A stretch of 64,000 nucleotides of DNA from Lophium mytilinum (lineage: Eukaryota): assembly GCA_010093605.1 (NCBI GenBank), contig MU004190.1:1757599-1821598 (forward strand), written 5' to 3'. Positions within the stretch are counted from its first letter, which is position 1, and each line of letters begins with the position of its first letter. The notes under the pieces were generated by a model. That model did no database searches and had not been told where the DNA came from. It worked only from the letters and a program-made list of their open reading frames with translations. The position numbers were made by a program, and so were the translations under genes. This document shows positions 2,181 through 49,442 of this stretch, one piece after another.

Positions 2181-4355
2181 ATGAGTGCGTCAAAACTTGG
2201 CTCGTCTCCTACACATCTCGAAGCCATGGACTTCATGGATCCCCGGCCAGCGAAGAAGCGGTCGCCCGCGGCCTGCATCATTCCACTGTTGTTGGTTGCG
2301 ATATCACTGCATTGCGTCTGGGAGTTGCTCTCAATGGCTCTCCGCTGCGCATTCTGGATGGCATCGATCCTTCTTTCTCCGTTCCTCCACCTCTTTGTCC
2401 TCGGCTTGGCCGTCTTTGGCCTCTGCATCATGGTCAACGTCGACGCCGATCATTCACCTCCAAGCATCGAGGTGGTTGATTGCGATACGTTTACGACCGA
2501 GAGCACACAAGCAGAGCAACATGCAAAGAGCTACGAGGTGCGTAGAGTACCCAGAGTCTCTTCGGTGCACACTGACAGCATCCAGGTCGAAACTGCGAGC
2601 GCAAGGACTGCTCCATTCACCAAGTTGCCGGCGACCAAGACAGAGTCAGCCAACAGCTCTGAAAGGAAGAAGACTAGGAACATCTTGCAAAACAGCAAGA
2701 TCCCAGTCAAGAAGACTACCGCAAACACCGTGCGAAGCAGCAAGAGGGAGACTCCTAAGTGGACCACGTCCACGGAGAGCAAGTTTCCAATCAGGAAGAC
2801 CACCACGAACACCGTGCGCAACGGCAATGAGGCTCATAGGCCAGCCAAGCCCACTGAAAGCAAGGTTTCAGTCAGGGCGGAGAAGCAGAGCCAGGATATG
2901 TCCTCCAGCTCATCAACTACTTCTATATGCTCTACACCACCCCCTTCGTCAAAGGTTCCGTCCTCGCCGACTTCCTCCGTCTCCTCAAATGCATCTGCCT
3001 CATCGGCCACATCTTCCTCACATAAGGCTTCCGAGTTACAAGATGCCTCTCAGGGGTCTTCCAAGAGCACTCCATCCTCCAATCCCTCTGCTTCCCCCAA
3101 GAGTGCCGTTCCGCCCACAGCGCCTAACGGCTCCGCGACATCCTCCCACCCCCCTTATCCCCACAACTCAGCTAAGACTGGCACTGCGTCGGGACCAACG
3201 CCCGTGCCGGATGATGTTTCTCCAAAAGCTACCGAATCTGAGACTTCGACTACCGGAACTGGTACTGGGTCGACAGCACATGAGAGCAACGATGGCGATG
3301 CAGACTCTGACACCGAGGAGTGTAAGGACTATTTCGTGAACTTCTATGAAGTCCTTCACATTTCACGAGATGCAACCACGGCCCAAATAAGGAAGGCATA
3401 CAAGATGATGGCCATTAAGTACCATCCGGACAAGGCCGCCCCGATGGACAAGGAGAAAGCGGATGAGTTGTTCAAGTTGATCGGAGAGGCAGCTCGCGTC
3501 TTGAAAGACGACTATCTCAGGGCTGGCCATGACGCCAGCATAGATGCGGGACCTGACGCTAAGAAAGCGGAAGGCCCAAATATGGACCCAGTCACCGGCG
3601 TTACATACTACGAGCAACTGGGTCTTCGCAATGGTGCATCTGTTGACGAAGTGTGGCAGCGCTATTGCCAGCTTACGGCCGAGTACGAAGAGATGGTCCG
3701 AGCCGCCATTGCAAATGGCCACGACGTCGATGATGCCGAGCGTGATGCCCTCTTCAAGAAGTCACAGCTAGAGTCTGCGACCGCTGATCTGTGGGATCCG
3801 GTCAAGAAGTCCCATTACGACTTGGAACTTTGGAAGAACTCGAGGATGGGGGGCGAAGAGCCCAACATCCTCACAGCGGTCCCTGGAGGATATGAGGTGG
3901 TAAACCCAGAGCGCGACCCCGGGGAAGAAGTCAGGAGTGAGAGAATGGAAGGCCCCAATGGCGAGACCATTGACGCAGTTGTCTACTCCTACTTTCATCT
4001 AGACAATGGCGCCACGCTTGACGAAGTCTGGGACGCCTACCAGCGAATGATGCGGACTTTCTGTGCCGTGTTCGAGGAGGAGACATCAACACCGGATCAG
4101 AAAGCTTGGGCCAACGAGCTCATTACGGAGTACAATGACTATATGAAGTTCATTGGGGAGCCTATTCACAAGTACTGGTACGATGACTCGTTGTGGAGGG
4201 CGGGCCGCCTGCCGAGTAGGCCAGTTTGGACAGCAGAGGCGGAGCAAGCGGCGAAAGCTAAGAAAGCTGAGCTCGAAGAGACCAAGAAGCCTATTGTGGG
4301 CGGGAAGTATTATGAAGACGATGATGGTGTTCTCAGGCTTTACGAAGAAAGCTAA
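2181..4355 (+). CDS. Membrane-anchored J-domain (DnaJ-like) protein, 724 aa, with one HPD J-domain and two degenerate J-like repeats
   Basis: Intronless ORF. Hydrophobic N-terminal segments, Ser/Thr/Pro-rich linker, then NFYEVLHISRDATTAQIRKAYKMMAIKYHPDK...LFKLIGEAARVLKD (HPD at 3423-3431). Two further J-like units lack HPD (TYYEQLGLRNGASVDEV...DPVKKSHYD; VYSYFHLDNGATLDEV...EPIHKYWYD). Confidence 0.9.
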   Translation: MSASKLGSSPTHLEAMDFMDPRPAKKRSPAACIIPLLLVAISLHCVWELLSMALRCAFWMASILLSPFLHLFVLGLAVFGLCIMVNVDADHSPPSIEVVDCDTFTTESTQAEQHAKSYEVRRVPRVSSVHTDSIQVETASARTAPFTKLPATKTESANSSERKKTRNILQNSKIPVKKTTANTVRSSKRETPKWTTSTESKFPIRKTTTNTVRNGNEAHRPAKPTESKVSVRAEKQSQDMSSSSSTTSICSTPPPSSKVPSSPTSSVSSNASASSATSSSHKASELQDASQGSSKSTPSSNPSASPKSAVPPTAPNGSATSSHPPYPHNSAKTGTASGPTPVPDDVSPKATESETSTTGTGTGSTAHESNDGDADSDTEECKDYFVNFYEVLHISRDATTAQIRKAYKMMAIKYHPDKAAPMDKEKADELFKLIGEAARVLKDDYLRAGHDASIDAGPDAKKAEGPNMDPVTGVTYYEQLGLRNGASVDEVWQRYCQLTAEYEEMVRAAIANGHDVDDAERDALFKKSQLESATADLWDPVKKSHYDLELWKNSRMGGEEPNILTAVPGGYEVVNPERDPGEEVRSERMEGPNGETIDAVVYSYFHLDNGATLDEVWDAYQRMMRTFCAVFEEETSTPDQKAWANELITEYNDYMKFIGEPIHKYWYDDSLWRAGRLPSRPVWTAEAEQAAKAKKAELEETKKPIVGGKYYEDDDGVLRLYEES

Positions 4356-4706
4356 GCTGTTGTTTCTATTTCTTGAGCTTTTGGCTGCTGAATTATTCTT
4401 TTGTAACTCTTTTACGATGCATTAGTCCCTGTTGGATTGATTTCCTATTTTAACTGCGATGTGCGGACTAAGTTTTCTATTTTGTTAGTGTTGCTTAGAT
4501 ACCCGGATTCTTTCAGTTGAGGATTCTACATATGTAGCAAATGACTCCATGATCAATATCCGCTCTATATTGACATGATGTACGTATAATAGTGACTTTC
4601 ACCAAACTAGTTACAAGTTTTTAGAGGCCTAACATAATGCTAAACTTTTGCATGCTTGAGACGCGAACAGCAATAAGGACTAATTATCTACAGTATTAGG
4701 CCATAA

Positions 4707-5286
4707 GTCTGGGCACACGCATATCATCACTGCTTTGCTCCAGTCTCACTCACTCGACACCACTTTAGGGGCTAGCTTGTCTGCTGAGAAGCCAGCTAGA
4801 CACGCGGCAGCCTGATATACACTGCTTGAAGATTGGGATTGCCTCAGATTTTCGAGATTCTATGACACACGGATCTGTAACTGCTTGGCTCCAATCTTGT
4901 CCTCTAGACATCACTAAGAGGAATAGCCCGGCTAGTTAGTAGCTAATAAGTCAAAGTATAGTCTGATTTGCATTGCTCGAAACTTGACATCGCGCCCAGA
5001 CTTTCAAAAGGTATGGGAGTACCCTAAGCAGTGGTAAACGGGTGTGCAAAGACTTATGGCCTGTTACTATAATCTTTGTAACCAGCGATGTTATGAATGT
5101 ATGTCATTACTACTTCGCACACAGACTTATTATAGCTTGGCTCCAACTTGCCCACTTGACACCACTGTATGGAATACCCTGGCTGCTGAGCAGCCAATCA
5201 GTCAAGTGGTAGTCCAATCTGCACCGCTGGAACCTCGACATCACCGTTGGATCTTCAAAACCCTATATGGGGAGCCCAAACAGTGT
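4707..5286 (-). repeat. Array 1 of the palindromic-core repeat family (3 units, minus orientation)
   Basis: Cores at 4911-5034 and 5162-5286, plus a one-arm unit at ~4759. The reverse complement matches 12932-13056 and 46742-46866 (CCACTGCTTAGGGTAC...GATGTCAAGTTT...CAGTGG). Confidence 0.85.
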
Positions 5287-5692
5287 CGATTCAGCGTGCT
5301 CGCGCATCAGCCCCTGTATCACGGTATCTACGACAAGTTATTACCATGATCCTCCTGTTCCAAGTCGAAATGTCTCCGAAAGAGTCATTCTGTGCTTCGA
5401 TATGTGCAGGCTATCATGATACACTGCATTAAACTAAGATGACGTAGTCATGGATCCAAGGGTGAATGAGCCGCAACTAGACCTGGCATTCTAAAAACAG
5501 TGAATCTCGTCTCACTGCTACAGACTGCGACCTGCCGCGCGGGCAATTTCCTCGAGTACTTAAAGCCCCTCTGCCGCAGATTGAGCTTGCTCCTAACACA
5601 CTCTCACCTACTCACCCCACCACCCATATCGCATCAGCTCTTGCGACACCCCACCCTCACTCAGAACCGTCATCCTGTACAGCCTTCTTTCC

Positions 5693-6879
5693 ATGCCCAC
5701 CAAAAAGGCCATGACTCCACACATCCAAGACGACTCTACCACCGAAGAACCCTTCGCGGTTTTCTTCAAAGGGGTAGCTCTAGCCCTCACCATCAACTCT
5801 TTTCTTGCCCACATGTTTGCGCTTATTGCGCTTAATCCCATCATTGGCCACCTCGAGGTCGTGATCTTCTTCCACATACTTCTCCTCCTCATCGCGCTTG
5901 TCTTCAACTACTTCCAACCCGAAGACACCGCCGAGAACAGCCAGGCCGCAGATTCCCACGATGGCGCGATCAACGAAGACGAACCTATAATCGGCCGCCT
6001 GCTCTACGCTGGCCTTTGGCTTTCGGGAACCAACGCTGCTCTCAATACGATCCGTACTTTCAACCTGCTCCCACTTTCAGTTCTCCTTATGGCATCGTTC
6101 CTTGTTATGGCGGAGGCAGCCCCTCGTCTGCAGTCTGAAGGCTCTGCGCAGCAAGCCGAGACAGTCCTCCTGGATGATAGTGCGGAATGGAAGCTAGCTT
6201 CCGAAACACTGAAGATCGACGTGAGTGGCGCATCTGAGGCTGCTCTAGATTTTCCACTAATATCATACAGATGGAGGCGATCTGTACGAAGTTCGCATCA
6301 TACCTGCCCTTGCTGCACAGCAGCATACCGTCGACCATCAGCTCTATTGCTGCCCGGATTGGACCATTCACGTGCAGCCTCTCCTACAAGGACGAAGCGC
6401 CAGAATCCACCACGGGAACCACGCGCGCTACAGAAGGCATTATGAACGGCGAGACCCAGGCCCTCCAGCCCGGCGCCGAAGCTCCGCGCCCGTCCTCTAC
6501 GCTGAACCCTACATCTGCATCCTCCACACCCCCGACATCAGTGGATACGAAACCTCTCGAGCTGTTCACCGAATCCTTCAAGGAGAAGCTCAATAGGAAA
6601 GAAGCAATCGAAGACTTCCGTAAGCTTCTCGGAGCGCCACCGATTGCTACCACAGCCCAGGTCAAGCGCATCGTCAAGGCTCTGAATGGCAAGATACAAG
6701 TGGATAGGGAACTGATGAAGGATGAAGAGAAAGCGGATGAGCTCCAAAAGCTGATTGCGTGTACTTCCTACCTTCTCAAAGAGCCACTAGAGCTAGTGAT
6801 TGTGAGGAAGCGGTTGACTCCTCGCCCGCTTGGACCTGGGGTGAACAAGATTGGTGGACGGCGACGCAATCGCCACTAA
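5693..6879 (+). CDS. Membrane protein with a degenerate (HPD>QVD) J-domain, 2 exons, 378 aa
   Basis: Exons 5693-6220 and 6271-6879. Phase-0 intron 6221-6270 (GTGAGT...CACTAA...CAG). Several hydrophobic helices. The C-terminal ATTAQVKRIVKALNGKIQVDRELMKDEEKADELQKLIACTSYLLKE aligns without gaps to the J-domain of 2181-4355. Confidence 0.75.
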
Positions 6880-7367
6880 GGCTGGAACGAACGATGTCAG
6901 CACCACCTCTCCACCGGACGAGGCTTTCGAAAGTCACTCACCAACGACATCGAAATTGAGCGTCTCTACCGCGAGACACACTAGGTAAAGGACGAGCACG
7001 ATTTCATTCACTATGGGGCTGGGATCTTGTATGCTACGGACACAGGCTTCATGAGGCTCTCTTTCACACAGCATTGCTTTGATTTAAGACTTGCTAGCGT
7101 CATGGGAGACATTGTGATTGCATTGCATGGGGCTTGCATTTGCGGTTTTCATTTTGTCATGCTTGTTACACAACTTTTGTTTGGTCAGACACATCATGGA
7201 GTTCAAGTGGATGCTTGGACATTGGTTCGACAGGGAGTATTTCTTTCGGGATTGATGCGTAATGACTTGCTACTAGTTCGCTGTTTTCAATCACATTGTC
7301 CAACTCTTTCCACTCTGAACTGTGAATAACTATAAGGTGATCGCAGGGTATCCTGTACACACTCGTT

Positions 7368-8215
7368 TGCCACTGCTAGGAGCGCCCCATTGGGGTGTCT
7401 ACAACGTAGGTGTCATGTCACGTTTCAGACAGCGTAATCTGAACGTCCTCTTGACTAAGAGATGCTGTCATGACGGGGCCACTCCTGACAGTGGCGTTCA
7501 GCCAGCCAAATGTGATACTTAAGCAGTGATATCCGCGTGACACAGAGATATTTATAAATTTGGGCGCTTATTTACCACTTCCAGGAGCGGCCCCGCTGGG
7601 TGAATATAACGTAAGCGTCATGTTAAGTTTTACACAGCGTAATCTAGATATTAATTTGACTAAGAGACATTGTTGCGACTGGGTTGCCCCTGACAGTCGC
7701 GTCCAGCTTTCAAGGGCGATACTTAAGTAGTGATATCCGTGTGCCTAAACCGTGGCCTGGTACTGTATTACATCTATAGTTAATCAATTTAGGCACTTAT
7801 TTGCCACTGCTAGAAGCAGCTCCGTGGAGAAACCATAGTGTAGATTCCATGTCAAGTTTCAGAGAGCGTACATCGAGCTGCCTTTTAACTAAGAGGTATC
7901 CTCGCAATAGGTCCGCTCCCGACAGTAGCGTCTAATGCCCAGAGCGGCACTTAAACACTGGCGACTACAACCGTACACTTATTACCTAGCATTGTGCATC
8001 AAAATTTATGAATTTGGGCACCTATCTGCCACTGCTAGGAGTGCCCCAATAGGCTCACTATAGTGTAGGTGTTATGCTAAGTTTGAGGCAGCGTAATATG
8101 AGCTTCCTCTTGACTAAGACGTGTCCCGGCGAAGGGCCGCCCCTGACAGTGACATCCAGCTTGCAAAGACGGCACTCAAGCAGTGATATCTATGTGCATA
8201 GACTTATGGCCTGGT
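7368..8215 (+). repeat. Array 2 of the palindromic-core repeat family (4 tandem units)
   Basis: Cores at 7370-7494, 7575-7699, 7804-7928 and 8029-8152, with periods of 205, 229 and 225 bp. Shared blocks: CCACT, ATG(T/C)(C/T)A(A/C)GTTT, AGCGTA, TT(G/A)ACTAAGA, GACAGT. Confidence 0.9.
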
Positions 8216-8628
8216 GCTATATGTTGTATTTTATGCTATGAGGGTACTATTGATCGTGGGAGTCCCTATCTTAGATTGTGTAAGCGTCCCTTTGGCCGCA
8301 GATCCTAGAAAATATAGATAAGATGGTAAACATACACTAGTAACTCACTTCGGGAGCCTTGCTTATGTCAGCCTCCTCCGCCTTAGACGCTTTTGCCGCC
8401 TCACTTGACGCTTGGATCACCAGTCCACATTCGGCTATTTACAGAACTCTTGGGACCTCACCTCTTCCTCACCACAACACACTTGAAGCAGACTCCACAA
8501 ACCACTTCACCTGAAGCAGACTGCACCAACCTCTTCTCTCAACGCCATCTCACCGTTGTTCGAGAAGCTCTTTCTGTTCACCAGTGTTGTTACCTTCATC
8601 AAGACTTCCACGCTCTACCATAGCTACC

Positions 8629-10473
8629 ATGGACGCTTCCAAAGCAATGAATTCTGAGACACTGTATCTGCAGATTGTCCTCCTATTCCTCCTCACCTTC
8701 ACCGTCATCAAGGTCTTCGATGCCTTGATTACCCTCCTCCTCTGGACCTCACTCGCCCTGGTTTTCCTCACTGCACTTCTCCTCGTCCTTCCTCACTCCA
8801 CTCAGACGGAGCTCGCAACCTCCTGGCGGGACCTCGCCGCGGCCTTGGGGTCTCTCGCGGCCTCTTTGAGGGTCGATGGCACTGTGACGTGGAACGCCGT
8901 CTCTCCGAACGAGTCTTGTCGCCGCAATACACAGGAGGTCGCCGAGGTTAGTAGTGAGCCTCCTCGTCCTTTTCGGCATCACACTGACAGACTGCAGCGT
9001 CATGATACGAGACAAACGTCGACCGCAAGCTCGCCAAAGAGTGGATCGCGCTCTTTCCCCCAGTCACTCGATGCCAATGATAGCCCGTTTACCAGCGCCA
9101 GCGAAGCGACATCGCACAACAAGAAGCAAAACACTCCTAAGCCTATCACACAATCCTCAACCGTCCAGAGCAAGTCGGCCTCTCCTGGCGGTGCAAGTGT
9201 TAAATCAAACCCCGCGCCCGAGAACAGTCTGCATCTTCGAGAACCAAGCGGTGCCCCCATCTTGTCGGCCAAGGTGAATGAGCCGCCCCTGGAGCACGAA
9301 GTTGGACATGATCTTGACAATATGGAAGGCGTGGAAGCCCTCGCAAAAGCCACGGACAACGAAGACAGCGACGAGGTTGTATCTACCCCTAAAGACGCCC
9401 AGAAGTCACATGAAGTCGAGTCCCCGGCATGTCTTCAGAACACTCCAATCAGCACTCCTCTTGATCCAACGGCCACTCTTATTGCCGAAGATCGGGAAGA
9501 AGATAAGGATAAAGTCCAAAAGGCGCAAGACTTCAATCTCAACTTCGAAAGCTACTACGAGGCTCTTGGACTCGTACGTACTGCATCTAAAAAGGACATA
9601 GTCAAGGCATACCGCAAGAAAGCCTTGACCTGTCACCCTGATAAAGTTGCGCCCGAATTCAAGGACGTTGCCGCCAACCTGTTCAAAGTCATTACCGAGG
9701 CGCATGATGTTCTCACAGACGATGCCCTCCGCGTAGACTACGACCGCGGAATTGACATACATGAGAAACCACCTCGGCCCATGTTATACACCCTTCTAAA
9801 CCTCCCAGCGGGTACTCACATTCATTTGGTACGTGAAATGTACGATACCATGTTAGCGGACTACGCCGAGTACGAATACCAGCAAGATTTGGCAAAGAAC
9901 TACGATGCGTCAGGGCAGGCGGTAGCCGACGCCCAGCAACTACGAATTGATATGGAAGAGCTTCTACACCCCGACAGCAAGCTAGCGTACGATCTGAGCC
10001 TGTGGTTTGAAGGGATCTTGACGGGTCCAAAGCCAGACAGGCCCGACCGTATTGATGGTAGCACGGGACCCACCGTGGAGCTCTTCGCGGGCTACCCACA
10101 GCTTAACTCCTACGCTCGACTTTCCCTGCCGCCGGGATGCCCTATGGAGGAAGTCCGTGCGCATTACCAGGTTCTCCACGCCTTGTTCCTGAATGAATGC
10201 AAAGGTGCAACTACGTACGCGGAGCGCAAGGCGCTGGACACGTGCATCATGGACTTAAACAAGATCATGGTGGATTTAGAGAGCACGGTCCGAAAGAGCC
10301 AGTACGACTGGTGCTTGTGGTGTGATTACATCATCGACGGGGAGGAGCCCCAGTGGCTAGTCATGGTGGATGGAGAGGTACAAGTCGGCACCCCGCCTGT
10401 GGCCAACAGCGATGAGGTCGGGCCCGATGTGATTGACGGTGACGAAGAGGGGGACGCGAAGCAGTGGTATTGA
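8629..10473 (+). CDS. Membrane-anchored J-domain (DnaJ-like) protein, 614 aa, paralogue of 2181-4355
   Basis: First ATG at 8629. N-terminal hydrophobic helices, low-complexity linker, then SYYEALGLVRTASKKDIVKAYRKKALTCHPDK (HPD 9634-9642). Two degenerate J-like units follow, ending KLAYDLSLW and RKSQYDWCLW. Confidence 0.9.
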   Translation: MDASKAMNSETLYLQIVLLFLLTFTVIKVFDALITLLLWTSLALVFLTALLLVLPHSTQTELATSWRDLAAALGSLAASLRVDGTVTWNAVSPNESCRRNTQEVAEVSSEPPRPFRHHTDRLQRHDTRQTSTASSPKSGSRSFPQSLDANDSPFTSASEATSHNKKQNTPKPITQSSTVQSKSASPGGASVKSNPAPENSLHLREPSGAPILSAKVNEPPLEHEVGHDLDNMEGVEALAKATDNEDSDEVVSTPKDAQKSHEVESPACLQNTPISTPLDPTATLIAEDREEDKDKVQKAQDFNLNFESYYEALGLVRTASKKDIVKAYRKKALTCHPDKVAPEFKDVAANLFKVITEAHDVLTDDALRVDYDRGIDIHEKPPRPMLYTLLNLPAGTHIHLVREMYDTMLADYAEYEYQQDLAKNYDASGQAVADAQQLRIDMEELLHPDSKLAYDLSLWFEGILTGPKPDRPDRIDGSTGPTVELFAGYPQLNSYARLSLPPGCPMEEVRAHYQVLHALFLNECKGATTYAERKALDTCIMDLNKIMVDLESTVRKSQYDWCLWCDYIIDGEEPQWLVMVDGEVQVGTPPVANSDEVGPDVIDGDEEGDAKQWY

Positions 10474-10656
10474 GGACCACGCGTGATGGTTGCGAGAGCT
10501 CGGAGGTGTTGTTTAGGATGACATAGATAGAAATTAATGAACCAGTACCCAGTCCATGCCTTTGTTATAATACACTTGTAAGTACATTGTGCTATTGTAG
10601 GAAGATCTATGCAAAGCACGTAAAACCAGCGAAATGGACTACAGTGCCAAATCACA

Positions 10657-11310
10657 AGTCTGGACACCCAAATCGATCATTGCTTAGCCCAACGCTGCTC
10701 ACTTAACACCACTGCAAGGAAGACCCTGACTACTTAGTAGCTAGTAAGCCAGAAGGCTGTCTAATCTACACGGCTTAGATTAATGCACTCATAGAGGTGG
10801 ATCATATGTCTGGGCACGCGATTCTATAGCTCCGTGGGTTAGATTTTGCGCACTTAACACCACTGTAGGGGGGTTCCTGCCTGCTAAGTAACTATTTAGT
10901 TATGAGGCAGCCTGATTTGCAATGCCTAGATTAAGGCACTTCCAGAGATGGGCTATATGTCTAAATGCACTGATTCGTTACTGCCTAGCTCGAGTCTTGC
11001 TCACTAGCTACCACTGTAGGGAGTAGCCTGCCTGCTAAGCAATAGTTTAGTCAAAAGGCAGTCTAATTCGCACTGCTTAGATTGATACACTAGCAGAAAT
11101 GGACTATATATCCAACGAGCCGGATCTGGTACTACCTGGCTTGAGTCTTGCTTGATGGTTACCACCGTAGGAGGTACCCCAGCAGGCAGGTCGCGGGCCA
11201 GTAATATGGTATTCAGATATCTACAGCATGGAATGAAACATGGCGTTACGGACATCCAGCTTACTTGGCTTTGGTTTTGGTCTATAGACACCACTGTCAG
11301 GGGGACCCCC
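10657..11310 (-). repeat. Array 3 of the palindromic-core repeat family (one-arm 151 bp units, minus orientation)
   Basis: ACCAC(T/C)G anchors at 10708, 10859, 11010 and 11161 (exact 151 bp period), plus a fifth at 11290. Confidence 0.85.
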
Positions 11311-11737
11311 GTTGCGAGGAATCCAGCCAGCCAAAGCGTAGTTCAATATGTAACACCCGAACGAGACGATGAAGCCCCGGATTGGTTCTCCGTCTGGGAC
11401 GTACATGATGCTGTACCCACCTCCTAGACGGCAAAGTCACTACTGGTCTACATGCAGAATCATCACGCAAGAGTTGTATTTGCGCAATCTTGTATCGTCA
11501 GAGTTCAGGCGTTGTCGGAATTCCACTGCCTTCATAATCCGTCAGCACTGGATCAGTAAACATCACCTCGGACCCTGCACAACCACAATTATCGTATATT
11601 GTCAACTTCCGCCACGAGCCGCCTTACTCAGACTTCTATACAGATGTCGTTCAATACTTAAAGAGCGCCTTCTTGAGAAATTGTAACAGGCATCGCATAT
11701 GTTCCAAAAGTCTCAGGTCAGAAGACATCTAAGTAAA

Positions 11738-12739
11738 ATGCATTTCCTGACAGCAATACTCTTCTGTAAGCCAACCCTCACGTCTTTCTACTCAGCAACA
11801 TCAGCTAATGGTTCCATTTGAATAGCTTTCTCAGTTCTTAATTTGTCTTCTGCATTTCCTCATCACGATCTGCCAAATCACCCCAGCCCTGCCGGCGAAG
11901 ACATTGCTATCACCAACGGCAACGTCACCCTCCACTACACCAAGTACGGCCGCGGACCCCTCCTAATTTTCGTCCATGGCTTTCCCGATCACGCCGACAC
12001 CTGGGCTACCTTCCAAGTCCCCTTCTTCGCTCGCACCCACACCGTCCTTACCCCCTATCTACGCGGCTACCCTCCGTCCTCGGTCCCCGCCGACGTATCC
12101 GCCTACTCCTCCGCTAACTTCGTGTCTGATCTCCTCGCTATCCTGGACCACGAAAAGGCCGAGAAAGCGTCCATCGTCGGCCACGACGTCGGTGGCGGGG
12201 TCGTGCAGTACTTCGCGCTCGCGCATCCAGAACGCGTAGAAGCGCTAGTTCTCGTGAACACCGTCGTGCTGCCGAACTTTGTGCGCCTAATCGAATTCGA
12301 CCCTGACCAAGAGTATCGCGCCAAGTACACCATCGCGCTCGAAGCGTACCATGCTGGGGATCCGGTGCCACAGCAGGTGTTCGACATCCTCGCAAGTATC
12401 CGGAATGAGACGTATCGCGCTGAGGTCACCAAATACATAGAGAAGGGCCCGATTGACGGGATGCTGCACTTTTACAATGACAATTACCCGGAACCGCCGT
12501 ATGGGAAGAATATCAGCACGGCGGGGATGGTGGAGAAGGTGCCGACGTTGATTGTGTGGGGGACTGATGATCAGTATTTTAGTCCGAAGAATTACGATGG
12601 GTTGGCGGGGTGGTTTGAGAAGGGGGTAAGGTTGGTGACGGTGCCTGGGGCGAGTCATTGGAGCTTCAGGGATCAGCCGGAGAAGTTCAATGTGGAGGTT
12701 GATGGGTTTTTGAGGACGGTGGGCGAATTGAGGGGGTAG
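11738..12739 (+). CDS. Secreted alpha/beta hydrolase (epoxide-hydrolase-like), 2 exons, 313 aa
   Basis: Exon 11738-11765, intron 11766-11825 (GTAAGC...GCTAAT...TAG), exon 11826-12739. Splicing yields the signal-peptide-like MHFLTAILFSFSVLNLSSA. HGFP oxyanion motif, GHDVGG nucleophile elbow (Asp), candidate catalytic His in ASHW. Confidence 0.88.
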
Positions 12740-12756
12740 GTAGGGGGCAATGTTGA

Positions 12757-13445
12757 GGTCAAAGCAGTGCAGATTGGACTTCATCTTGACTAATTGGCTA
12801 TTTGGTAGACAGCCCACCCCTTGCGGTGGTGTCCAGTAAGCAATACTTAAGATAATCAGCGATAAATTTGTGTGCCTAGACACTTAGTTATATACTATAG
12901 AGATTATAACCTTTAAGTTAGCCGCTTATCGCCACTGCTTAGGGTACCCCCACAGAAGTTCAGAGATCTAAAGGCGATGTTAAGTTTCAAACAGTGTACA
13001 TTAGAAAGCCTCTTAACCTAATAGCTGTTCGGCACGCAGGCCACCCCTTATAGTGGCGTGAAGTAAGCAAGAGTTGAGCTAGATTATTATAAATCTGTGT
13101 GCCTAGACACTTAGTTATAACCTTTAAGTTGGCCGCTTGTCGCTACTGCTTAGGGTACCCCCACAGGAATTTAACAATCTGAAAACGATGTCAAGTTCTA
13201 AACAGTATAGATTAGAAAGCCTCTTGACCAATTGGCTGTTTGGCACGCAGGCAACCCCCTACAGTGGTGTTAAGTAAGCAAGATTCGAGCCAGGTAGTGA
13301 TAACTCCGTTTGTTTAGCACTTGGATCCACTTCTGTACTTGCATTAATCCGTACATTGCAAATTAGACTACCTCTTAACCGCATACCTGCTCAGTAGCCA
13401 GGTGACCACTTACAGTGGCGTCAAGTCAGCAAGAATAAAGCGGTA
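12757..13445 (+). repeat. Array 4 of the palindromic-core repeat family (4 units)
   Basis: Full cores at 12932-13056 and 13143-13267 with near-identical leaders (TGTGTGCCTAGACACTTAGTTATA...ACCTTTAAGTT). One-arm units anchored at 12826 and 13415, the latter 151 bp after the previous right arm. Confidence 0.9.
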
Positions 13446-13665
13446 GCAGCTAGTATCACAACGTACTCCTACTATAGATACTGAGAAAATGATTACCTAG
13501 TCTCACGCTCTTTCGCAGAGAGAAATGATATATTGAGCTGACATCCTCACGAGACGCATCTACATTGCCGTTCCGCATAGTTCTCGATTTGTTATGCGGC
13601 TGGAATAGCGTTCAGTTCCTAGCATCGAAGTACAGGGACAGAGTCTAGATCTGTGCATTTTCATT

Positions 13666-13850
13666 GCCACTGCTAGAGGCGCCCCCGTAACGTTTCCAGA
13701 GTGTAAAAGAGGCGTCATATTTCATACAACGGAGTCCGTGCTGCTTTTTTATTGGCCAATTTCCTAGCGACCGGGCTGCTCCTGACGGCGGTATCAAGCT
13801 TCCAAAAGTGATGCTGAAGAAGTTGTGCCTATATGCGAAGACCTATAGCA
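13666..13850 (+). repeat. Diverged single unit of the palindromic-core repeat (array-2 subtype)
   Basis: CCACTGCTAGAGGCGCCCC at 13667 through GCTCCTGACGGCGG ending 13791 (125 bp core). Confidence 0.7.
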
Positions 13851-13965
13851 ATAGAATCGTACTATTTAGGTCTTTCTGTAACTTTAACAAACATCACAAC
13901 CTTAAACTCGTAGCAGTTCCCTAGCAATCTTCTCACCCCTTCATACCTATCGCTCACCCTACGTA

Positions 13966-15878: not shown

Positions 15879-18800
15879 GGTTCGGGGCCAAATGTTGAAT
15901 GGATCGACGAAATCAGGGGAGAGTACAGTACATAACTGCAACCTCCATATAACTGCTTGCTACAATGCCTCGAGACTCCCCGCGAAGATGAAATGCTTGA
16001 TAACTACGTGAGACGTAAAGCAATTGAACTGAACAAGGAACTGAAATCGACAAAGAACACGAGAAACTTAATCGCAAGTCATGAGTCTGGACACAGAAAA
16101 CGCTCTCCACTTAAGTGCCACTTTTCCTTGCTGGACGCTATTGTTAGGAGTAGCCCGGCGGCCAGTCCTGCCAATGAGAAAAGTGTTAACCGAAATCACA
16201 TCCAGATCCTCAAAACTATATTCGGCAACATGCAGTGCTAACCAAGTGCGCGCAGATTTCTGCCAGGAAACCGACCACTCCAGCAAGCGATGGGGATCCG
16301 GTATACGTACCTCAACATCAACCGCAGTCCAAAGACCTCCCCAATCCCATCCCATCCTATTTTCAGAAACGACGTTGGTTCCCCTGAGCCGACAAGCAAC
16401 CCTACGCGGATCTCCTCACCCCTGAATGTAAATATAGACCGAAACATTCGCCCATCTAGCTTGTCTCCATCGCGATTCTCTTGGCAAGAATGGCAGAAAA
16501 GGGCGCTGTGGTTCGCTGAAGTAGTTCGCGCGGTTGGTGTAGGAGGATGAAACATGCGATGTGTGCCTCAGCCACCTCCATAGCGCGCCTATATTTGGAG
16601 ACAGTTTGCCTGATCGGGGTAGTGTCACGTGCCGATAAGCCAGGCCCGCCAGTGTTGGATGGGGAGATGAGACATCGTAAATTGACCAGTTGAGTTGTCT
16701 TTTTCTGCTAGTTCCAAGGCGTGCTTCCTCTCCCTCTTTCTTGCCGAAGGTTGATGGTGGTGGCAGTGCCAGATCACGTGCACCCAGCCCCGGCTCTCCC
16801 AAACCCGTCCCGCTGTCATCCAGCCACCACCTGCAGCTGTCATCCGTCAGCCAAGCTCTCCACAACCTCCGCAACACCAAACCTGTATCCCCATCATCCT
16901 CAGCCAACGGCACAGCTTCCTCGTCCCGCCAATCGCCATGCCTTTTTCTGCCAAAAGCTGAAACGCGCGGAGCCGATGCGTCCGGCTGCCGTGTGCGGCC
17001 ACGTCGTCGTCGAGTGGAAAGCAGGGTCATATCGCAACAGGCCGAGCTAGTTGCGATAGACGACGGCATCATGGAACTCCTAGCGAGGACGCTGCACCGG
17101 AGCGGCTGATAGACGGTGCCCAAACCTCAAAGCGCAACGATTTCCTCGACCGCGGCAGTTAGTTCCGCTTCATTGCGGATGGGTGGTCGCTGTATTGCTG
17201 CCAGACACCTCAGCGCGACCCACGGGCGAAGGCTGGGGTCGCCTCACCAAGTCCATCCGCCAGAGTTCTGCCAGCAGGGTCAGCCAGGTGACTTCGCGGC
17301 GTCATCCTGCCTTCAATCCGCCAGGAAAGGACGATTGCCGCGCAGATCGTCGCTTGGAGTCGCTTACCAGCACTTGCCGAGCCCATATCAAGACCATGGC
17401 GGGGGAGCATCACTAGATTTCCAGGGTTGCAAACCGGGTTCGTGCTGGTAGAGGTGGTGCTGGCTGAAGGACCGGTGAAGCGCGCGCCCAATGCCCGTTA
17501 CGCCGACTTATCCGCCGCGAGCGGGTGATCTGGTGCTGGCGAACCTCCCATCTTACTTACATGGCAGAATTCCGGGGCGTGCGCAAGGTACCTCCCGGCT
17601 AGATGAGGGTTTTATGGAACCCGGTTTGGGATTATGGTGGCTAGGAGGGCAGGATGCGGCTCGTGAGGCGCTGAGTTGTCAACGCGCGGTGGCTAGATGG
17701 GGACGTGTCGGGTCCACTTGGGAAGAGACGGTGGGTGGAATTGGGTAAGGGCGCCGTTGCGAATTGTGGAGAGGAGGGTTTGGATGGCGTTGTTGAGATT
17801 GCCCATGGGGATTGCAATCGCTGTCCTGACCGGAGGTGAGCTATCAATTTCAAAGCTCATTGAGTTGGCTTATAGGTTTCTGTGCCTGTCCATCAAATGG
17901 CAATGGTTTCACACCAGCTACAATCACACACTATCGCGATTCTCGAGTCCTAGGTGTTTTGTAAGCTCAATTGGGCGTCGATGTCGACTTCGGAAACGGC
18001 CGAGGCACGAACAGCACACAGTACAGATTCGCCACCGTCTAAACTCCGTATGGATATTGATCAACAAACCAGCACTTAGTAAACACAAGGCCGCTATCAC
18101 GACCTCCGGCCCTGGTGCCTGACCATATGCACCAGCGGACTTGAAACTGACTGGGCATGGCGTGGAGCCCAACCCAACGCCGCGTCTACCCTCTGGGTAT
18201 AGCTACGTGTTCTTTCGATCGGCGTTCCTTCGCGTGGTGATATTCAGCCGGACAGTTCGGTCCACTTTTGCAGCCTCACAAAATTCGGGATGAGGAACCT
18301 ATAGTATGTGGAGGTGCGGAGGTGGCGAACTTGGGGTGGCGTGGGGAGAGATACTGGAGGATGTAGTGCAGCGCAATATCATTCATCGCTTTTCATCCGT
18401 AAATGGCAATATATCCTCACCTTTCCAACATAGGCTAAATGATGACAAAGGCCGCCATACTCTATACTGGACTTGTGTGAGCAGCCGCCTAGGGAATAAC
18501 CTGAGAGGTGCAATATCGTACTCTTTTGCATCACCTTGGCCCTTCCAGTCCCAGTTCCACGATGTGAGAATGCCTGACTGTCTGGCGCGGTTGCTTTGGA
18601 CGCCTTCAACGCCATGATCAGCGCTGGCATCAAGGAAACAAGCCCAAATACCCCAGCATGTTCCATCCTCAGGACATGTACTCCTCCTTGCGATCCGTCT
18701 CTCAAGATATCACACGGTTCCTTGCGATGAAGTGCTCGAAACCATGCACGAGCAGTTCTAAGACTCATCCTACATCCTCAACCTCAACCTCTCGATTGCA

Positions 18801-19751: not shown

Positions 19752-21464
19752 CAAAGGGTGCGGCTCGGAGCACAATCACAAACCAATGGCTGAGGGGTCC
19801 GAGCGCGGCAGAATTGTAGCCAATCAATCAAACACGCTTATAAGGCGGTGAAGGCCTTAACCACTATTTTAAGTCGTGATTTCCCCTTTTTTAATATAAA
19901 CAATGCCTTAACACCACACCAGAGGGCGCTCTACCGGGGCCCTAGATATTCTAATTGCTATAAAAGTAGCTATTATTACTATAAGAGTATTCTATAATAT
20001 TTCTTACCTTAAATTAGAGTAGAAAATTAGTATAAACTACTCTATATATATTAAAATCTTTAACTAGGCTAAAGAGAATACTAGAAATAAGGATTTTTAT
20101 AACCTTTTAGCTACTTTATTACCTAAATCTAAGCGCCTAGGTAGATAGCTAAAGATTAAGAAAGATAGTAAGTTATTCTATAAGATTTACTAAAATATAC
20201 TATACTAGGATAAATATAGCTTTAAGAAAGCTACTATACTAGCACTTTATAAGTATAGAGTAATAGTAGCTAGATTATTAATTAAATATATTATCTACTA
20301 GTATATAGATTCTCTCTACTAGATACTAATTATATATAGAATTAGGCCTAGAAAGCCGGCACTTAATATAGTATAGAAAGATACTAGATTTAATTACTAT
20401 ATCTAGCTATAAGATCTTATTAAAAGAACCTAAAAAAAAGTTATTATTATCTATTTAGATAAATTACTAAAGTAATTTAGACCGGGCTAGGCTAGTAAAG
20501 GTAAAGCTAGAGTCTCTAGGCTAAAGAGAGAAGATACTAATAAGTATATAATAGCCTAAAAGAGCCCTAAGTTCTTCTTTTCTTTTTAGAGTACTATATA
20601 CTTAAATAATTATATTCTAAGGCTATATATTATATAGAAGCTAGAGTCTTAAGAGTAGAAGAATACTTTTAAGAAAAAGCTTATTAAAGATAATAAGAAT
20701 ATAAAGAAAAGGGCTAAAAGGTACTAAAGAAATACTAAGATTTAGAGGATAATAGAGTATAACTATATAAAGAAGGTAAATAATAAAATTAGAGAAGATA
20801 ATAAGCGCCTTAAATAATAAGAAATTTAAAAGGGATAGTAGTATAAGTATAGGCCTAATTAGAAGTATAAGTATAAGATTTTTACCTAAGAAAAAGAAAA
20901 GAGAATAGATATAGCTTAGTATGCTAATAATATTCTAAAGCTATTATTTTATTCTTACTATTTTACTATATAAGAAGTAAACCTAGATAAAGAGATTTAG
21001 CTAATTAAGAATAATATCTCTCTTTACTATTCTACTTAAAGGAAACTATTATACCTCTTTTTATAGATTAAATTTATAGACTACCTAGCTTTCTTCTCTA
21101 ATTTATACCTAATTAAGTAAGTCTTTAGAAGGATAAACTATTCTATAAAGCTCTATAACTACTAGAGTGCTAGTAAGTAAGTAAAAGATAAAGCTAGATA
21201 GTTTCTACTTAATCTATAGAGAAAGGATAAATAAATAAATAAATATATTATTAGCTAAGTAAAAAATAGTACCTTTCTAGACCTTATATATAAGTATAAA
21301 TTAGTAGATAGAAATAATAACTTTATAGGATAATAGCGCACTTTATTTAGTGTATTATTATATAGAATTAAATAAGTTGTAGTACTTTAAACGTAGAGGA
21401 AGCACCTTAGTATTCCTACCCCTGCGCTTACGTAATGTGATTGTGCTCCGCGCCGCACCCTTTG
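19752..21464 (+). mobile_element. RIP-inactivated Tc1/mariner DNA transposon, 1713 bp
   Basis: 29 bp TIRs (CAAAGGGTGCGGC[T/G]CGGAGCACAATCACA at 19752-19780 and 21436-21464, one mismatch) flanked by TA duplications (19750-51, 21465-66). The interior is extremely AT/TpA-rich with no ORF. A probable relic of the WPA.SPDL.PIE motif lies near 21080-21120. Confidence 0.93.
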
Positions 21465-33900: not shown

Positions 33901-35063
33901 TGGTATAGAGCACAAAGCTCTTTTTAGGTAGCTACGCGAGCGAGTACAAGAATTTTCAAGGCGGAAACCCCGTCACGTAGCTTTCGCTACGGATAAAAAT
34001 GCATCAATCTACTGCTAGCTTTGCTCTTACTGTGACCTGTTAAAGACAAGGATTGCAACTAACCTTCAACTGCAGCTTTCATATCCTTAACCACGCCGGG
34101 TTGGATCCTACAGAGCAGCTCTCGGGTGAACGCGGCCGCATTTCCAGCCGCATAAAACTTCCACCTATCGTTCTTATGCGAGTCCGCATAGTCGGAGATG
34201 CCGCGAATGACTAGACACTTTCTGTTGACGTCGACACCCGCTGCTTCCATCTCGACGCAAAGCGCCCCGTCACATCGCGCTCTAATTTGATCTCGTAGCT
34301 CGCCATCCTGGATAACCGAGTTGCCTGTGGCGATTCGCCCTCGATGGAAGACTAACTCGTTCATGTCCTCTTCAGTCCGTTGGGGTCTCTGAACCAGCTG
34401 GCTCTGGTCGCATGCCACGCAGTCAGATCCATAATATCCGATGTGATGGCGGCAGGTAGCCATGAAGAGCCGGTCATGTTCAAGGCCAGGGTGCACAAAC
34501 TTCTTCTTGTTCTTGCGAGTCACCAACCTGGCAAGTTGATGTTCAAATGTAGTCTTTCCCAGCTCATAATCGGAATCGAGGATGCTAAGCGCGTTTTGGA
34601 GCCTCCAGTCGGGGTCCTGCATCGTGCCCATGATCTCAAAATCGCCGTTCACCTTCAACCTTCGCCGGTCGTGGTAGACACAAGCTGGTTTCCCGTCGTC
34701 GGGCCATCCGACTACGACGTCTCCTAAATGAATGTTCTCGAGGGAATCCTCAGACTGTTTCAGAGGAGGGATTCCTCCTCCTATTCCAACGAGCACTGCC
34801 ATTCTGATGTTAGGAAACGTCTTGAACATGGGCCCGCTCAAACGCCCCGCGTTGACATTGGTTTCTCCCGGTGGGCAGGTCACTATGACTACGTTATGGC
34901 TGCCAATCGTGCCGCAGATGTACGTGTTCTCGTCGTAGTCCGAATCGTACGGCGGCGTGGTATGCTCCTCATCCAGCATCAACCGCGCAGGCAGCAGTTC
35001 AACGTCAGCCAGTGGGCATATCCATGCGACATGGTAGTCCGCGCAAGTAAGTTGTGGTGCCAT
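27992..35063 (-). CDS. Fungal NLR: PNP_UDP - NB-ARC - TPR with a long C-terminal extension, 4 exons, ~2225 aa
   Basis: Exons 35063-34064, 33766-30991, 30938-30277 and 30231-27992 (6678 nt, in frame). Introns 34063-33767, 30990-30939 and 30276-30232 are all GT...AG. PNP_UDP motifs VAWICPL, LVGIGGG, CVEMEAAG, IRGISDYADSHKN. Walker A GLGGCGKT and Walker B WLMIVDNADD. Six 42-aa HPDTLTSMNNLA-type TPRs. Confidence 0.85.
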
Positions 35064-35515
35064 TCTTCAAAGTGAATGATCTTGACCCAGAAGAAGGTTT
35101 TGTGCAGGACGAGGCACTTTGCTTCGTCGAGGACAGGTGCACGTAGAAAGCCGCGATCCCTCAGCCTGATCGCACCTTCTATCGCAGCCTTCCTGCGGAC
35201 CCCTCACCGCTCATCTCCGAGGTGCGCCTTCTCATGCACTGTTGGGCATGGACGCGACGTTGCGGCACATGATTGGACGGAAGCAGTTGTGCCTCGCCAA
35301 CTATCCCCTCCCTGGATGCATATGCAGTAGGTAGCCTTAGGCATCAATGAGGCTGAGCCCCGCTCCCAGCTAGCTAGCAAAAAATTTAGTATAATTAAAA
35401 GCATACCACTCTCGTGTCAAGAGATTTTCAGCCTCGAGTGCATACTTGTTGTTTCAGAGCTCGTATACCACATCCAACATTTCCGAAATCATCGTTTCTT
35501 AAGTGTCACCTGATC

Positions 35516-46481: not shown

Positions 46482-46741
46482 TGAGGCTGGGACTGGGGAT
46501 GGTATGATGAGGTGCCAGAGGATCTTAGCTGTGCACACTGCGGGTTTTGGTTGCTAGTTTTCAAGTCTAATCTGTCTGATTTTCGGTAGAAGTTTTAGTT
46601 ACTTTTGAATGATCTTCGTACTTTTCCATCGAACCTTGGGATCAAGTTACTAAAGGTGGCAATAAAGTTAGCAAATCTTTCAGAGCTAGAGCGAGAAAAC
46701 AGATATTCATGACAGGTTATGCTGCGTAAGACACGGGTACG

Positions 46742-46866
46742 CCACTGCTTGGGGTACCCCCACAGGGTTTTGAAGACTCGAGAGCGATGTCAGAGTTCAA
46801 GCGTTGCAGATTAGACTGCCTCTTGACCGATTACCTGCTCAGCAGTCGGGCTACCCCTAACAGTGG
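46742..46866 (+). repeat. Solo copy of the palindromic-core repeat, 33 kb from the arrays
   Basis: CCACTGCTTGGGGTACCCC ... GGGCTACCCCTAACAGTGG, a 125 bp core collinear with 12932-13056. Confidence 0.9.
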
Positions 46867-47325
46867 TGTTGAGTGGGCTAATTGGACATTGGTGTAGTGG
46901 TTGTCTCGAGATACTCCCTACGTAGTTTTTCAAACAGACATATTGCTGGGAAACTTTCTATCTTACGTATACCGAATCTGGCATTGAAGATGGAAATCTG
47001 CAAACGACTGTTTCGTCCCGTGACTGTTATTCTAGGCTAGGGTGCCCGGACCACCGAGCGCCGCCGCTCTCCTCTCTCCTCTCCACACCCATCATCTTTA
47101 TCACTCGATATCTAAGCGATCGCCGAATGAAGTCAGTATGAGTGTATAAACAAGCTCTACACTATCTCGCTCTCAATTCAATACGCGGCCGTAAGCCAGC
47201 TATCTCAGATTGTCGTGAGTAATATTTGGCGCCGTATCCAATGCACGCGAATCGACGTCCTGGAGTACAAATTCCTCTTGGCCCGGGTTCAAAGCATTGG
47301 CCAATCTCTGATCAGGTATTTCGAA

Positions 47326-48695: not shown

Positions 48696-48839
48696 AAATG
48701 ATACAGTATTAAGACAATAGTTTGAGCGCTTCTTGTAACTGCTTGAAGAACCTATACATGTGATCAGAATATAGACACGATATTGGGTTCAATGTAGTGG
48801 GAAATATCCTGCTTTTCTAAGAAGAGCTAGATTCCTCGT

Positions 48840-49442
48840 TACCGCGGTGCCTGATCAGTAAAAGTGCGACAGAACTGTAATATATCCGTGTGTTCGAATG
48901 TATGATCTAGGCCTGTTGAAGATGGTACTGCCAGTCATCGAAACTTAGACTGCCTCGTAGTGATCTATGGTACCCGTGAGCATGTCGCTTACTCAAGGTC
49001 CGAAACGTATAGTGATAGGCGCTGTCGTAGAGCGGCGAGGGAATGTTGCGCCGGGTCGAGCGCCTCGGCTCCAGTCTGATTGAGGTCTTGCAGACGGTTC
49101 TTTGGAGGGATGTAGACGTAAGCTTCCGCCATTAAGGAAGCTGGCTTGTAATTGAGTTTACTGAAAAGGTTTTACTGACCAGATGCTAGTAGGAAGTGCG
49201 GATGGGGACAGGCGCGGGGGGACTCATGGAAGTGATGCTTTCTCGCCAAGCTAGCTTGAGGGTGAATAGCTCGACTCCCTACTCTCCTCTTCATTGACGA
49301 ACCCCTCTACATCTGAGGTTGGTGATTGCTGTCGGCGTGCCTGCTGCGTCTCTCCCTCCTTACCGTCGAAGTGCTCGTCTCTACATGCGAGGCTGGTGAT
49401 TGTTCCCTCCCTCCTCTGTGTAAAAGTACAGTTTGACACCAT
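48840..49442 (-). pseudogene. Possible decayed gene
   Basis: The MVSNCTF... frame continues past TAG/TGA/TAA stops as coding-like text (ASLMAEAYVYIPPKNRLQDLNQTGAEALDPAQHSLAALRQRLSLY). No family recognised. Confidence 0.3.

What the first reader, a model, noticed from the sequence alone, without database searches (positions are those of the whole stretch)
4707..13850. Unclassified repeat with a length-invariant 124-125 bp palindromic core fills every intergenic gap, in alternating orientation
Seen: about 18 units in the window. Ten full cores (4911, 5162, 7370, 7575, 7804, 8029, 12932, 13143, 13667, 46742) all measure 124-125 bp between inverted CCACTG-like and CAGTGG-like arms, despite heavy substitution. 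The arms extend to imperfect ~19-27 bp inverted repeats (CCACTGCTTGGGGTACCCC vs the reverse complement CCACTGTTAGGGGTAGCCC). Arrays follow each of four consecutive + strand genes in the order minus, plus, minus, plus. Inference: divergence with almost no indels suggests constraint on spacing, such as paired protein-binding or recombination sites or a hairpin RNA. The gene-array-gene layout suggests the repeat may have driven the J-gene duplications, cassette-fashion. A MITE-derived or Helitron-related origin is also possible; no TSD or cognate enzyme is visible here.
Basis: partly seen in the sequence, partly recalled or inferred. Interest (0 to 1): 0.75.

Follow-up and report, generated by a model that had tools for sequence, protein, structure and literature searches.

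The report
Decayed miniature transposon in tandem arrays
The repeat between these fungal genes is an old, non-coding miniature transposon that was copied head to tail into short arrays, an ordinary kind of selfish DNA and probably not a recombination or RNA device.

Summary
A profile search finds 20 units in the window. Seventeen lie in four consecutive intergenic gaps, oriented -,+,-,+.

The "core" is only the inner part of a larger element of about 215-240 bp. That element has terminal inverted repeats of about 50 bp that begin TA-CAGT and end ACTG-TA. It carries no ORF with a Pfam match. The source DNA run holds dozens of further copies. This is the anatomy of a TA-flanked, Tc1/mariner-type MITE.

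The arrays are head-to-tail elements that share one TA. Some junctions have lost their centre, and a 151-bp shortened unit recurs in three arrays. This fits double insertion followed by unequal exchange (PMC5932611).

Evidence for function is weak:
- Fewer indels in the core than in the flanks, p 0.02-0.04.
- Modest arm covariation.
- No stable fold in 12 of 14 units and no Rfam match.

Only two of the four genes carry J domains, at 27% identity, so the repeat did not drive their duplication. Earlier notes of this scan describe several other old intergenic short-array families on other DNA of this genome.

The parts
4689..5318 (-). Array A. It holds a short-type unit (4689-4863), a full unit (4858-5071), a spacer of about 15-20 bp, and a full unit (about 5086-5318). 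The first two units together are bounded by inverted ends, with TA at 4689-4690 and 5070-5071.
   Evidence: nhmmer units; inverted pair 4689-4718 with 5042-5071, 83% complementary; ends read; end-model hits. Other genomic copies stop matching at 4689 (loose ends).
7318..8221 (+). Array B. Four full units of subfamily II, with periods of 205, 229 and 225 bp. The junction at 7995-7996 is a single shared dinucleotide. The junction near 7550 has lost its centre.
   Evidence: The left boundary (about 7318) is my reading and is uncertain.
10640..11361 (-). Array C. Four short-type units (period 151 bp) and a partial fifth. A further remnant may reach about 11420. The terminal TA is at 10640-10641.
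   Evidence: TRF period 151 over 10859-11152; junction alignment. The possible remnant beyond 11361 was read by eye only.
12744..13448 (+). Array D. It holds one left-truncated unit that starts 5 bp after the stop codon of the hydrolase gene, two full units (81% identical), and one short-type partial unit.
   Evidence: TRF period 211 over 12904-13290. The tree groups D1-D2-D3.
13631..13861 (+). Unit D5. A single full unit of subfamily II, 182 bp downstream of array D, with TA at both ends as I read them.
   Evidence: The right end is less certain.
16070..16164 (-). Solo fragment holding the right third of a unit.
46720..46921 (+). Solo unit of subfamily I. Its inner arm pair is the best preserved, and its outer ends are decayed.
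48702..48917 (+). Solo full element with both inverted ends. It starts 6 bp after the stop codon of a beta-lactamase-family gene. Its core is 112 bp.

Best explanation
The repeat is a decayed family of non-autonomous DNA transposons (MITEs). Each element is about 215-240 bp long and has terminal inverted repeats of about 50 bp that begin TA-CAGT.

Inferred steps:
1. Copies were moved in trans by a Tc1/mariner-type transposase into TA sites.
2. Two copies landed at one TA, or a copy was duplicated, giving a head-to-tail dimer.
3. Unequal exchange or replication slippage extended the dimers into arrays of 3-5 units.
4. The palindromic junctions lost their centres.
5. One 151-bp unit, which lacks the left end, spread within and between arrays.

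The copies now decay without a demonstrable function.

Shown here: the element's anatomy, its multicopy status, and the junction structure. Inferred: the transposase family, the order of events, and the lack of function.
For: 1. Inverted ends. Left ends and reverse-complemented right ends of units align with each other over about 50-55 nt. A model built from that alignment hits 27 places, all inside the 20 units. Full units show one hit on each strand at their two ends, for example 48702-48754(+) with 48916-48862(-). One search finds 4689-4718 against 5042-5071 at 83% complementarity.

2. TA flanks. TA stands at 11 of the 13 termini I could place (my reading).

3. Multicopy and dispersed. In the source DNA run, unique sequence has depth of about 124-134. 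Summed depth over the unit at 5139-5256 reaches about 4600, and 202 contig pieces were laid. Sequence before 4689 disagrees among 5 contigs (agreement 0.45), which marks 4689 as the element boundary.

4. Non-coding. None of the 5 ORFs of 91-105 aa in or beside the arrays has a Pfam family.

5. Tandem growth.
- All units of an array share one orientation. If insertions were independent, P = 1.2e-4.
- Junctions are a single shared dinucleotide (7995-7996 and 12898-12899).
- The D2/D3 junction equals the D1/D2 junction minus 16 bp.
- Five junctions of the 151-bp type in arrays A, C (three) and D align without gaps.
- D1-D3, C2-C4 and three of the four B units (B1, B2, B4) each form a group on a tree, and all four B units fall with D5 in the subfamily II clade. 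Array labels need 8 changes against a shuffled mean of 11.7; 0 of 200 shuffles were as low.

6. Literature match. Tandem TE dimers formed by double insertion, expansion by unequal exchange, and deletion of inverted ends at junctions are described for DNA transposons in PMC5932611 (abstract and passages read). Degenerate TA-flanked fungal MITE families of similar size, end length and 62-70% pairwise identity are tabulated in PMC3227409 (passages read).
Against: - No transposase gene, and no longer element with these ends, lies in the window. No whole genome was available. The superfamily therefore rests on TA flanks and CAGT termini only.
- No empty site was seen, so TA may be part of the terminus and not a duplication.
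- The core has fewer indels than the flanks, p 0.02-0.04.
- Arm pairing slightly exceeds shuffles: 84.2% against 80.5%, reached by 2 of 500 shuffles; 13 pairs with changes on both sides against 7.8, reached by 1 of 500.
- Within array B, which I take to have grown in place, the arms differ less (0.24 per column) than the rest of the core (0.365), p 0.036.

The last three points are what some constraint would give. Relatedness of subfamilies can also give them, and so can selection on transposition before insertion.
Confidence: 0.78

Rival explanations
1. The units are functional DNA. Paired protein-binding sites (the two arms) are held at a fixed 125-bp spacing. They would act, for example, as chromatin boundary or nucleosome-positioning arrays between tandem genes, or as recombination sites.
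For: - Core length is 124-125 bp in 10 of 11 full units at 56% mean identity.
- Indels are fewer in the core than in the flanks, p 0.02-0.04.
- Arms and the GTCAAG/CTTGAC pair are the best-kept blocks, even within array B.
- Each array stops about 370-410 bp before the next start codon (my reading).
Against: - The short 151-bp units lack one arm altogether yet were amplified.
- One solo has lost 13 bp of core.
- Dozens of copies lie elsewhere in the genome.
- The statistical signals are weak and come from few, related sequences.
- Conserved arms are expected in any MITE, because both ends must fit one transposase.
Confidence: 0.08
2. The units encode a hairpin or structured RNA, or the oppositely oriented arrays give double-stranded RNA that feeds RNA silencing.
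For: - The inverted arms and an inner 6-bp inverted pair are predicted as helices. Thirteen of 25 pairs show a change on both sides.
- Arrays alternate in orientation along one transcription direction.
Against: - The consensus fold is only -5.23 kcal/mol and the covariation term is +0.3.
- Folding z-scores lie between -1.1 and +0.6 in 12 of 14 units.
- Rfam gives 0 matches at E up to 1.
- Alternation of four arrays has a chance probability of 1 in 8.
Confidence: 0.05
3. It is a plain minisatellite that never transposed, and its inverted ends are a by-product of an internal palindrome.
For: - Most units in the window are in arrays: 17 of 20.
- Earlier notes describe several other old short-array families between genes of this genome (not checked by me).
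Against: - Three solo copies lie far from the arrays. One of them is bounded by both inverted ends.
- Many contigs of the DNA run carry single copies whose flanks diverge exactly at the terminus.
Confidence: 0.07

Closest known systems
Degenerate TA-flanked (Tc1/mariner-type) fungal MITEs, for example EFT-5m/Rima, EFT-9m and EFT-14m of Epichloe festucae (PMC3227409, table and passages read). Eight of the 13 MITE families of Zymoseptoria tritici are also TA-flanked (PMC4522978, passages read).
   Same: - Size of 200-300 bp.
- Inverted ends of 30-60 bp.
- TA flanks.
- No coding capacity.
- Pairwise identity near 60-70%.
- Location between genes.
- No clear RIP dinucleotide bias in short elements.
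   Different: - Here the copies stand mostly as head-to-tail arrays.
- The element carries a third, internal copy of its arm.
- Length ranges given for the Epichloe families are wide, for example 139-535 bp, whereas this core is nearly fixed.
- That study masked tandem repeats before the search, so arrays would not have been seen there.
Tandem dimers and arrays of DNA transposons formed by double insertion and unequal exchange (hobo, P element and the Bari1 array of Drosophila; McGurk and Barbash 2018, PMC5932611, abstract and passages read).
   Same: - Head-to-tail elements with the target duplication between them.
- Deletion of inverted ends at the palindromic junction.
- Expansion of a dimer so that junction variants are copied.
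   Different: - Those are full-length autonomous elements in an animal, some in heterochromatin and some very young.
- These are MITEs in gene-dense fungal DNA, in arrays of 3-5 old units that have diverged to 60-80% identity.
Tandem-repeat-containing MITEs and short TE-borne arrays in euchromatin (clam Donax trunculus, termites, oyster; reviewed in PMC10048060, passages and reference list read; the primary papers were not read).
   Same: - Short arrays of fewer than 10 monomers, dispersed near genes and tied to a MITE.
- The 151-bp unit here behaves like an internal repeat that travels with the element.
   Different: - In those cases the repeat is an unrelated core between the MITE ends.
- Here the repeated unit is the MITE itself or a truncated MITE.
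- I found no fungal case.

Membership tests
MITE of the Tc1/mariner (Stowaway-like) type | Terminal inverted repeats at both ends | tested here: met
   Left ends and reverse-complemented right ends align over about 50-55 nt. The end model hits both ends of full units on opposite strands. The pair 4689-4718 with 5042-5071 is 83% complementary.
MITE of the Tc1/mariner (Stowaway-like) type | TA target-site duplication | tested here: inconclusive
   TA stands at 11 of 13 termini I could place. Without an empty site, TA cannot be told apart from a conserved terminal dinucleotide.
MITE of the Tc1/mariner (Stowaway-like) type | Small and non-coding | tested here: met
   Units measure 151-240 bp. The 5 ORFs of 91-105 aa in or beside the arrays have no Pfam family.
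MITE of the Tc1/mariner (Stowaway-like) type | Many dispersed copies in the genome | tested here: met
   In the source DNA run, summed contig depth reaches about 4600 over a unit, against about 130 for unique DNA. Other copies' flanks diverge at 4689. Three solos lie in the window.
MITE of the Tc1/mariner (Stowaway-like) type | A cognate transposase gene with matching ends | not testable with these tools
   No genome is held. No transposase domain appears in 34 further long ORFs of the window or in the 7 tested. There are no end-model hits outside the units. The metagenome scan for the unit gave 0 hits.
Helitron | No inverted ends; 5' TC and 3' CTRR termini with a subterminal hairpin | tested here: not met
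   Units have inverted ends of about 50 bp that begin TA-CAGT and end ACTG-TA. The list of Helitron features is partly recalled and partly from PMC4522978.
Transib-like MITE (CAC...GTG ends, 5-bp duplication), noted elsewhere in this genome | 5-bp duplication flanking the CACTG...CAGTG core | tested here: not met
   The 5 nt on either side of the core differ in the four units I compared by eye (B1, D2, A3 and the 46.7-kb solo). These flanks are conserved among copies as part of the unit.
Structured RNA gene | Stable conserved fold with covariation, or a match to a known family | tested here: not met
   Rfam gives 0 matches. The consensus fold is -5.23 kcal/mol with a covariation term of +0.3. 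Folding z is below -1.9 in 2 of 14 units. Pair counts only slightly exceed shuffles.
RIP-mutated repeat | Excess of C-to-T and G-to-A changes and depletion of CpA/TpG | tested here: not met
   C>T plus G>A departures number 249, against 267 for T>C plus A>G. The (CpA+TpG)/(ApC+GpT) index is 1.01-1.30 in the four arrays and 0.05 in the AT-rich block at 20-21 kb.

The most novel reading that the evidence does not exclude
The near-fixed 125-bp spacing and the co-varying arms are kept by selection. One possibility is that multimeric elements, a full unit plus 151-bp internal repeats bounded by one pair of ends, are still moved as units by a transposase that needs phased binding sites. That would make this a tandem-repeat-carrying MITE, a type I did not find described for fungi. 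The other possibility is that the host has adopted the arrays as boundary elements between co-oriented genes, as part of a genome-wide habit of keeping old short arrays between genes.
Probability: 0.1. Interest if true: 0.6.

Novelty: new member of a known kind. Interest (0 to 1): 0.3.

Why it matters
The result clears away a suspected recombination or RNA system and replaces it with a defined mobile-element family: unit, ends, two subfamilies and a truncated variant. Genome annotators can mask that family.

It is also a compact fungal example of a DNA transposon turning into a short satellite. It shows shared-TA junctions, junction deletions and a truncated unit that spreads. In the four literature searches I ran I found this described for animals and plants only.

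Earlier notes of this scan report several other old intergenic arrays in the same genome. Together they suggest that this fungus tolerates or generates short tandem arrays between genes unusually often. That could be tested genome-wide.

Tried and rejected
- Whole genome: none is held, so genome-wide mapping, the search for the transposase and empty-site tests were impossible.
- Metagenome scan with a 31-letter degenerate pattern of the unit: 0 loci.
- Metagenome scan for relatives of the hydrolase gene, to get an orthologous locus: 147 pattern matches, none confirmed.
- Sequencing runs: no RNA holder is listed. The one run guessed to be RNA covers repeats through contigs from other loci. It has no cover on genes 1-4, which says nothing about their expression.
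- Earlier findings searched by sequence, three times: no look-alikes.
- RIP as the cause of substitutions without indels: rejected.
- Composite transposon carrying gene 2 or gene 4 between inverted arrays: dropped. Any two MITEs give such ends, and both genes are single-copy by depth.
- Alternating orientation as a signal: four arrays give a 1 in 8 chance.
- Neutral indel-to-substitution ratio for a related fungus: the passages shown of PMC8497519 (12 of 15 places holding the search terms) gave no usable figure. Only the internal core-versus-flank comparison was used.
- A self-comparison using the profile's consensus was not run. Natural units were used instead.
- TRF finds only the two youngest arrays.
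Full report
SETTING

The window is nuclear DNA of an ascomycete. It has spliceosomal-type introns and fungal NLR-type genes. Earlier notes of this scan call the organism a wood-dwelling Dothideomycete (not checked by me). No whole genome is held for it.

The flagged stretch holds four genes on the + strand:
- Gene 1: a J-domain protein, 2181-4355.
- Gene 2: a protein without a Pfam family, 5693-6879, with one intron.
- Gene 3: a second J-domain protein, 8584-10473.
- Gene 4: an alpha/beta hydrolase, 11843-12739 plus a short upstream exon.

A GFA-family gene follows on the - strand.

THE OBSERVATION

A profile seeded on four units and iterated with nhmmer finds 20 distinct units:
- Array A: three units, - strand.
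- Array B: four units, + strand.
- Array C: five units, - strand.
- Array D: four units plus one nearby single unit, + strand.
- Three solos, at 16.1, 46.7 and 48.7 kb.

The other 12 of the 32 hits are opposite-strand self-matches, which shows that the core is palindromic.

Of 11 units with both arms, 8 have a 125-bp core, 2 have 124 bp and 1 has 112 bp. MAFFT aligns the cores almost without gaps. Mean core identity is 56%.

WHAT THE UNIT REALLY IS

I printed 45-60 nt beyond each unit and aligned left ends with reverse-complemented right ends. This shows terminal inverted repeats of about 50-55 nt that begin TA-CAGT and end ACTG-TA.

- A model of these ends hits 27 places, all inside the 20 units. 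Hits pair on opposite strands at the two ends of full units.
In unit B4 the left arm matches that tail better than it matches the inner arm.
- TA stands at 11 of the 13 termini I could place.
- The solo at 48702-48917 is a complete element with both ends.

In the source DNA run, unique DNA has depth of about 130. Summed contig depth over a unit reaches about 4600, and 202 pieces were laid. The sequence of other copies disagrees before 4689 (agreement 0.45 among 5 contigs), which marks that base as the element's end.

No ORF in or beside the arrays has a Pfam family. Rfam has no match.

This is the anatomy of a TA-flanked MITE of the Tc1/mariner type. The superfamily is an inference from ends and flanks. 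No transposase is present in the window.

HOW THE ARRAYS AROSE

Orientation. Within every array all units point the same way. If insertions were independent, P = 1.2e-4.

Junctions:
- Neighbouring full units share a single dinucleotide, at 12898-12899 (TA) and 7995-7996 (TG).
- At 7766-7770 the junction reads TA, T, TA.
- Two junctions have lost their centre. The D2/D3 junction equals the D1/D2 junction minus 16 bp, and the B1/B2 junction lacks the outer halves of both ends. This explains the periods of 205 and 211 bp against 225-229 bp.
- Junction sequences carry array-specific states.

Tree. D1-D3, C2-C4 and three B units (B1, B2, B4) each form a group, and all four B units fall with D5 in the subfamily II clade. 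Array labels need 8 changes against a shuffled mean of 11.7, and 0 of 200 shuffles were as low. End branches are long, with a median of 0.27 changes per site.

The short unit. The 151-bp unit lacks the left terminal repeat and the first third of the core. Its junction recurs with identical length in array A (once), array C (three times) and array D (once). This means one origin. It then spread, either inside multi-unit elements that kept one pair of ends (4689-5071 is such a pair) or by exchange between arrays.

Published model. All of this matches the route described for DNA transposons in Drosophila: double insertion at one target, expansion by unequal exchange, and loss of inverted ends at the palindromic junction (PMC5932611; abstract and passages read).

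IS THERE CONSTRAINT?

RIP does not explain substitution without indels.
- Departures from the majority base are symmetric: 249 C>T plus G>A against 267 T>C plus A>G.
- The RIP index of the arrays is 1.0-1.3. It is 0.05 in the RIP-ridden block at 20-21 kb.

Signals that would fit constraint:
- The core has 3 distinct gap blocks in 125 columns. The flanks have 9 in 89. That gives p = 0.02, or 0.04 if a shared gap is counted twice. The flanks include junction palindromes, which PMC5932611 suggests may be prone to deletions.
- Arm pairing exceeds column shuffles slightly: 84.2% against 80.5%, reached by 2 of 500 shuffles. Thirteen pairs show changes on both sides against 7.8, reached by 1 of 500. 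Much of this comes from two subfamilies that differ coherently in both arms. That is expected if each subfamily descends from a different master element.
- Within array B the arms differ less than the rest of the core: 0.24 against 0.365 per column, p 0.036. I cannot explain this away, but it rests on four sequences.

Signals against a structural role:
- The consensus fold is -5.23 kcal/mol, with a covariation term of +0.3.
- Single-strand folding beats shuffles (z below -1.9) in 2 of 14 units.
- One-armed 151-bp units were amplified freely.

- Genes 1 and 3 are paralogues at 27% identity over 477 residues.
- Gene 2 has no significant similarity to gene 3.
- Gene 4 is a hydrolase.
- Units of arrays A and C are 48-69% identical, like units within an array, so they are far younger than the gene duplication.
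- The repeat therefore did not drive a cassette-style duplication of J genes.
- Alternation of four arrays has a 1 in 8 chance.
- The clustering is real: 17 of 20 units lie in 14% of the window. It fits local reinsertion plus tandem growth.

COMPARISON WITH WHAT IS KNOWN

- The closest families are degenerate TA-flanked fungal MITEs (Epichloe, PMC3227409; Zymoseptoria, PMC4522978).
- The closest mechanism is the formation of tandem TE dimers and arrays (PMC5932611).
- Short TE-borne arrays near genes are reviewed in PMC10048060.
- Four literature searches listed no fungal case of MITE tandem arrays. This is a statement about those searches only.
- Earlier notes of this scan describe several other old short-array families between genes on other DNA of this genome (unchecked). 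This finding is one more of that kind, here with a clear transposon origin.

VERDICT

The repeat is real and its origin is ordinary. It is a new member of a known kind. A small residue of unexplained length and arm conservation remains.

Noticed in passing
window 20001-21000: An AT-rich block with GC 0.24 and a (CpA+TpG)/(ApC+GpT) index of 0.05. This is the signature of heavy repeat-induced point mutation. RIP has therefore acted in this genome, although the MITE arrays escaped it.
   Followed up: partly
window 27995-40252, - strand: A cluster of fungal NLR-type genes. One has NB-ARC/NACHT plus TPR repeats (30990-33776). Another has an NPHP3-type NACHT plus many DUF7104 repeats, split over two long ORFs (36922-38214 and 37802-40252).
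   Followed up: no
window 2181-4355 and 8584-10473: Each of the two J-domain proteins carries an internally repeated C-terminal module. A second BLAST segment aligns residues 465-591 of one protein with 495-619 of the other, out of register with the main alignment. Both proteins start with a hydrophobic segment.
   Followed up: no
window 12737-12744 and 48694-48703: Two units begin 5-6 bp after the stop codon of the upstream gene (the hydrolase and a beta-lactamase-family gene). The elements therefore sit where the 3' untranslated regions should start.
   Followed up: no
window 13774-13861: In the run guessed to be RNA, one contig with depth of about 400 matches the right half of unit D5 from 13774 onward but differs upstream. 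A subfamily II copy elsewhere may lie in an abundant transcript.
   Followed up: no
window 8480-8535: A 28-bp direct duplication, 86% identical, about 100 bp upstream of the start of the second J-domain gene.
   Followed up: no
window 35399-36463 and 40675-41871: Two Pfam families are each split over two adjacent ORFs on one strand (DUF6594 and PigL_N). This suggests an intron or a frameshift in each gene.
   Followed up: no
window 5318-5693, 8221-8630, 11361-11728: Each array ends about 370-410 bp before the start codon of the next gene, as if promoter regions of similar size were kept free of repeats.
   Followed up: no
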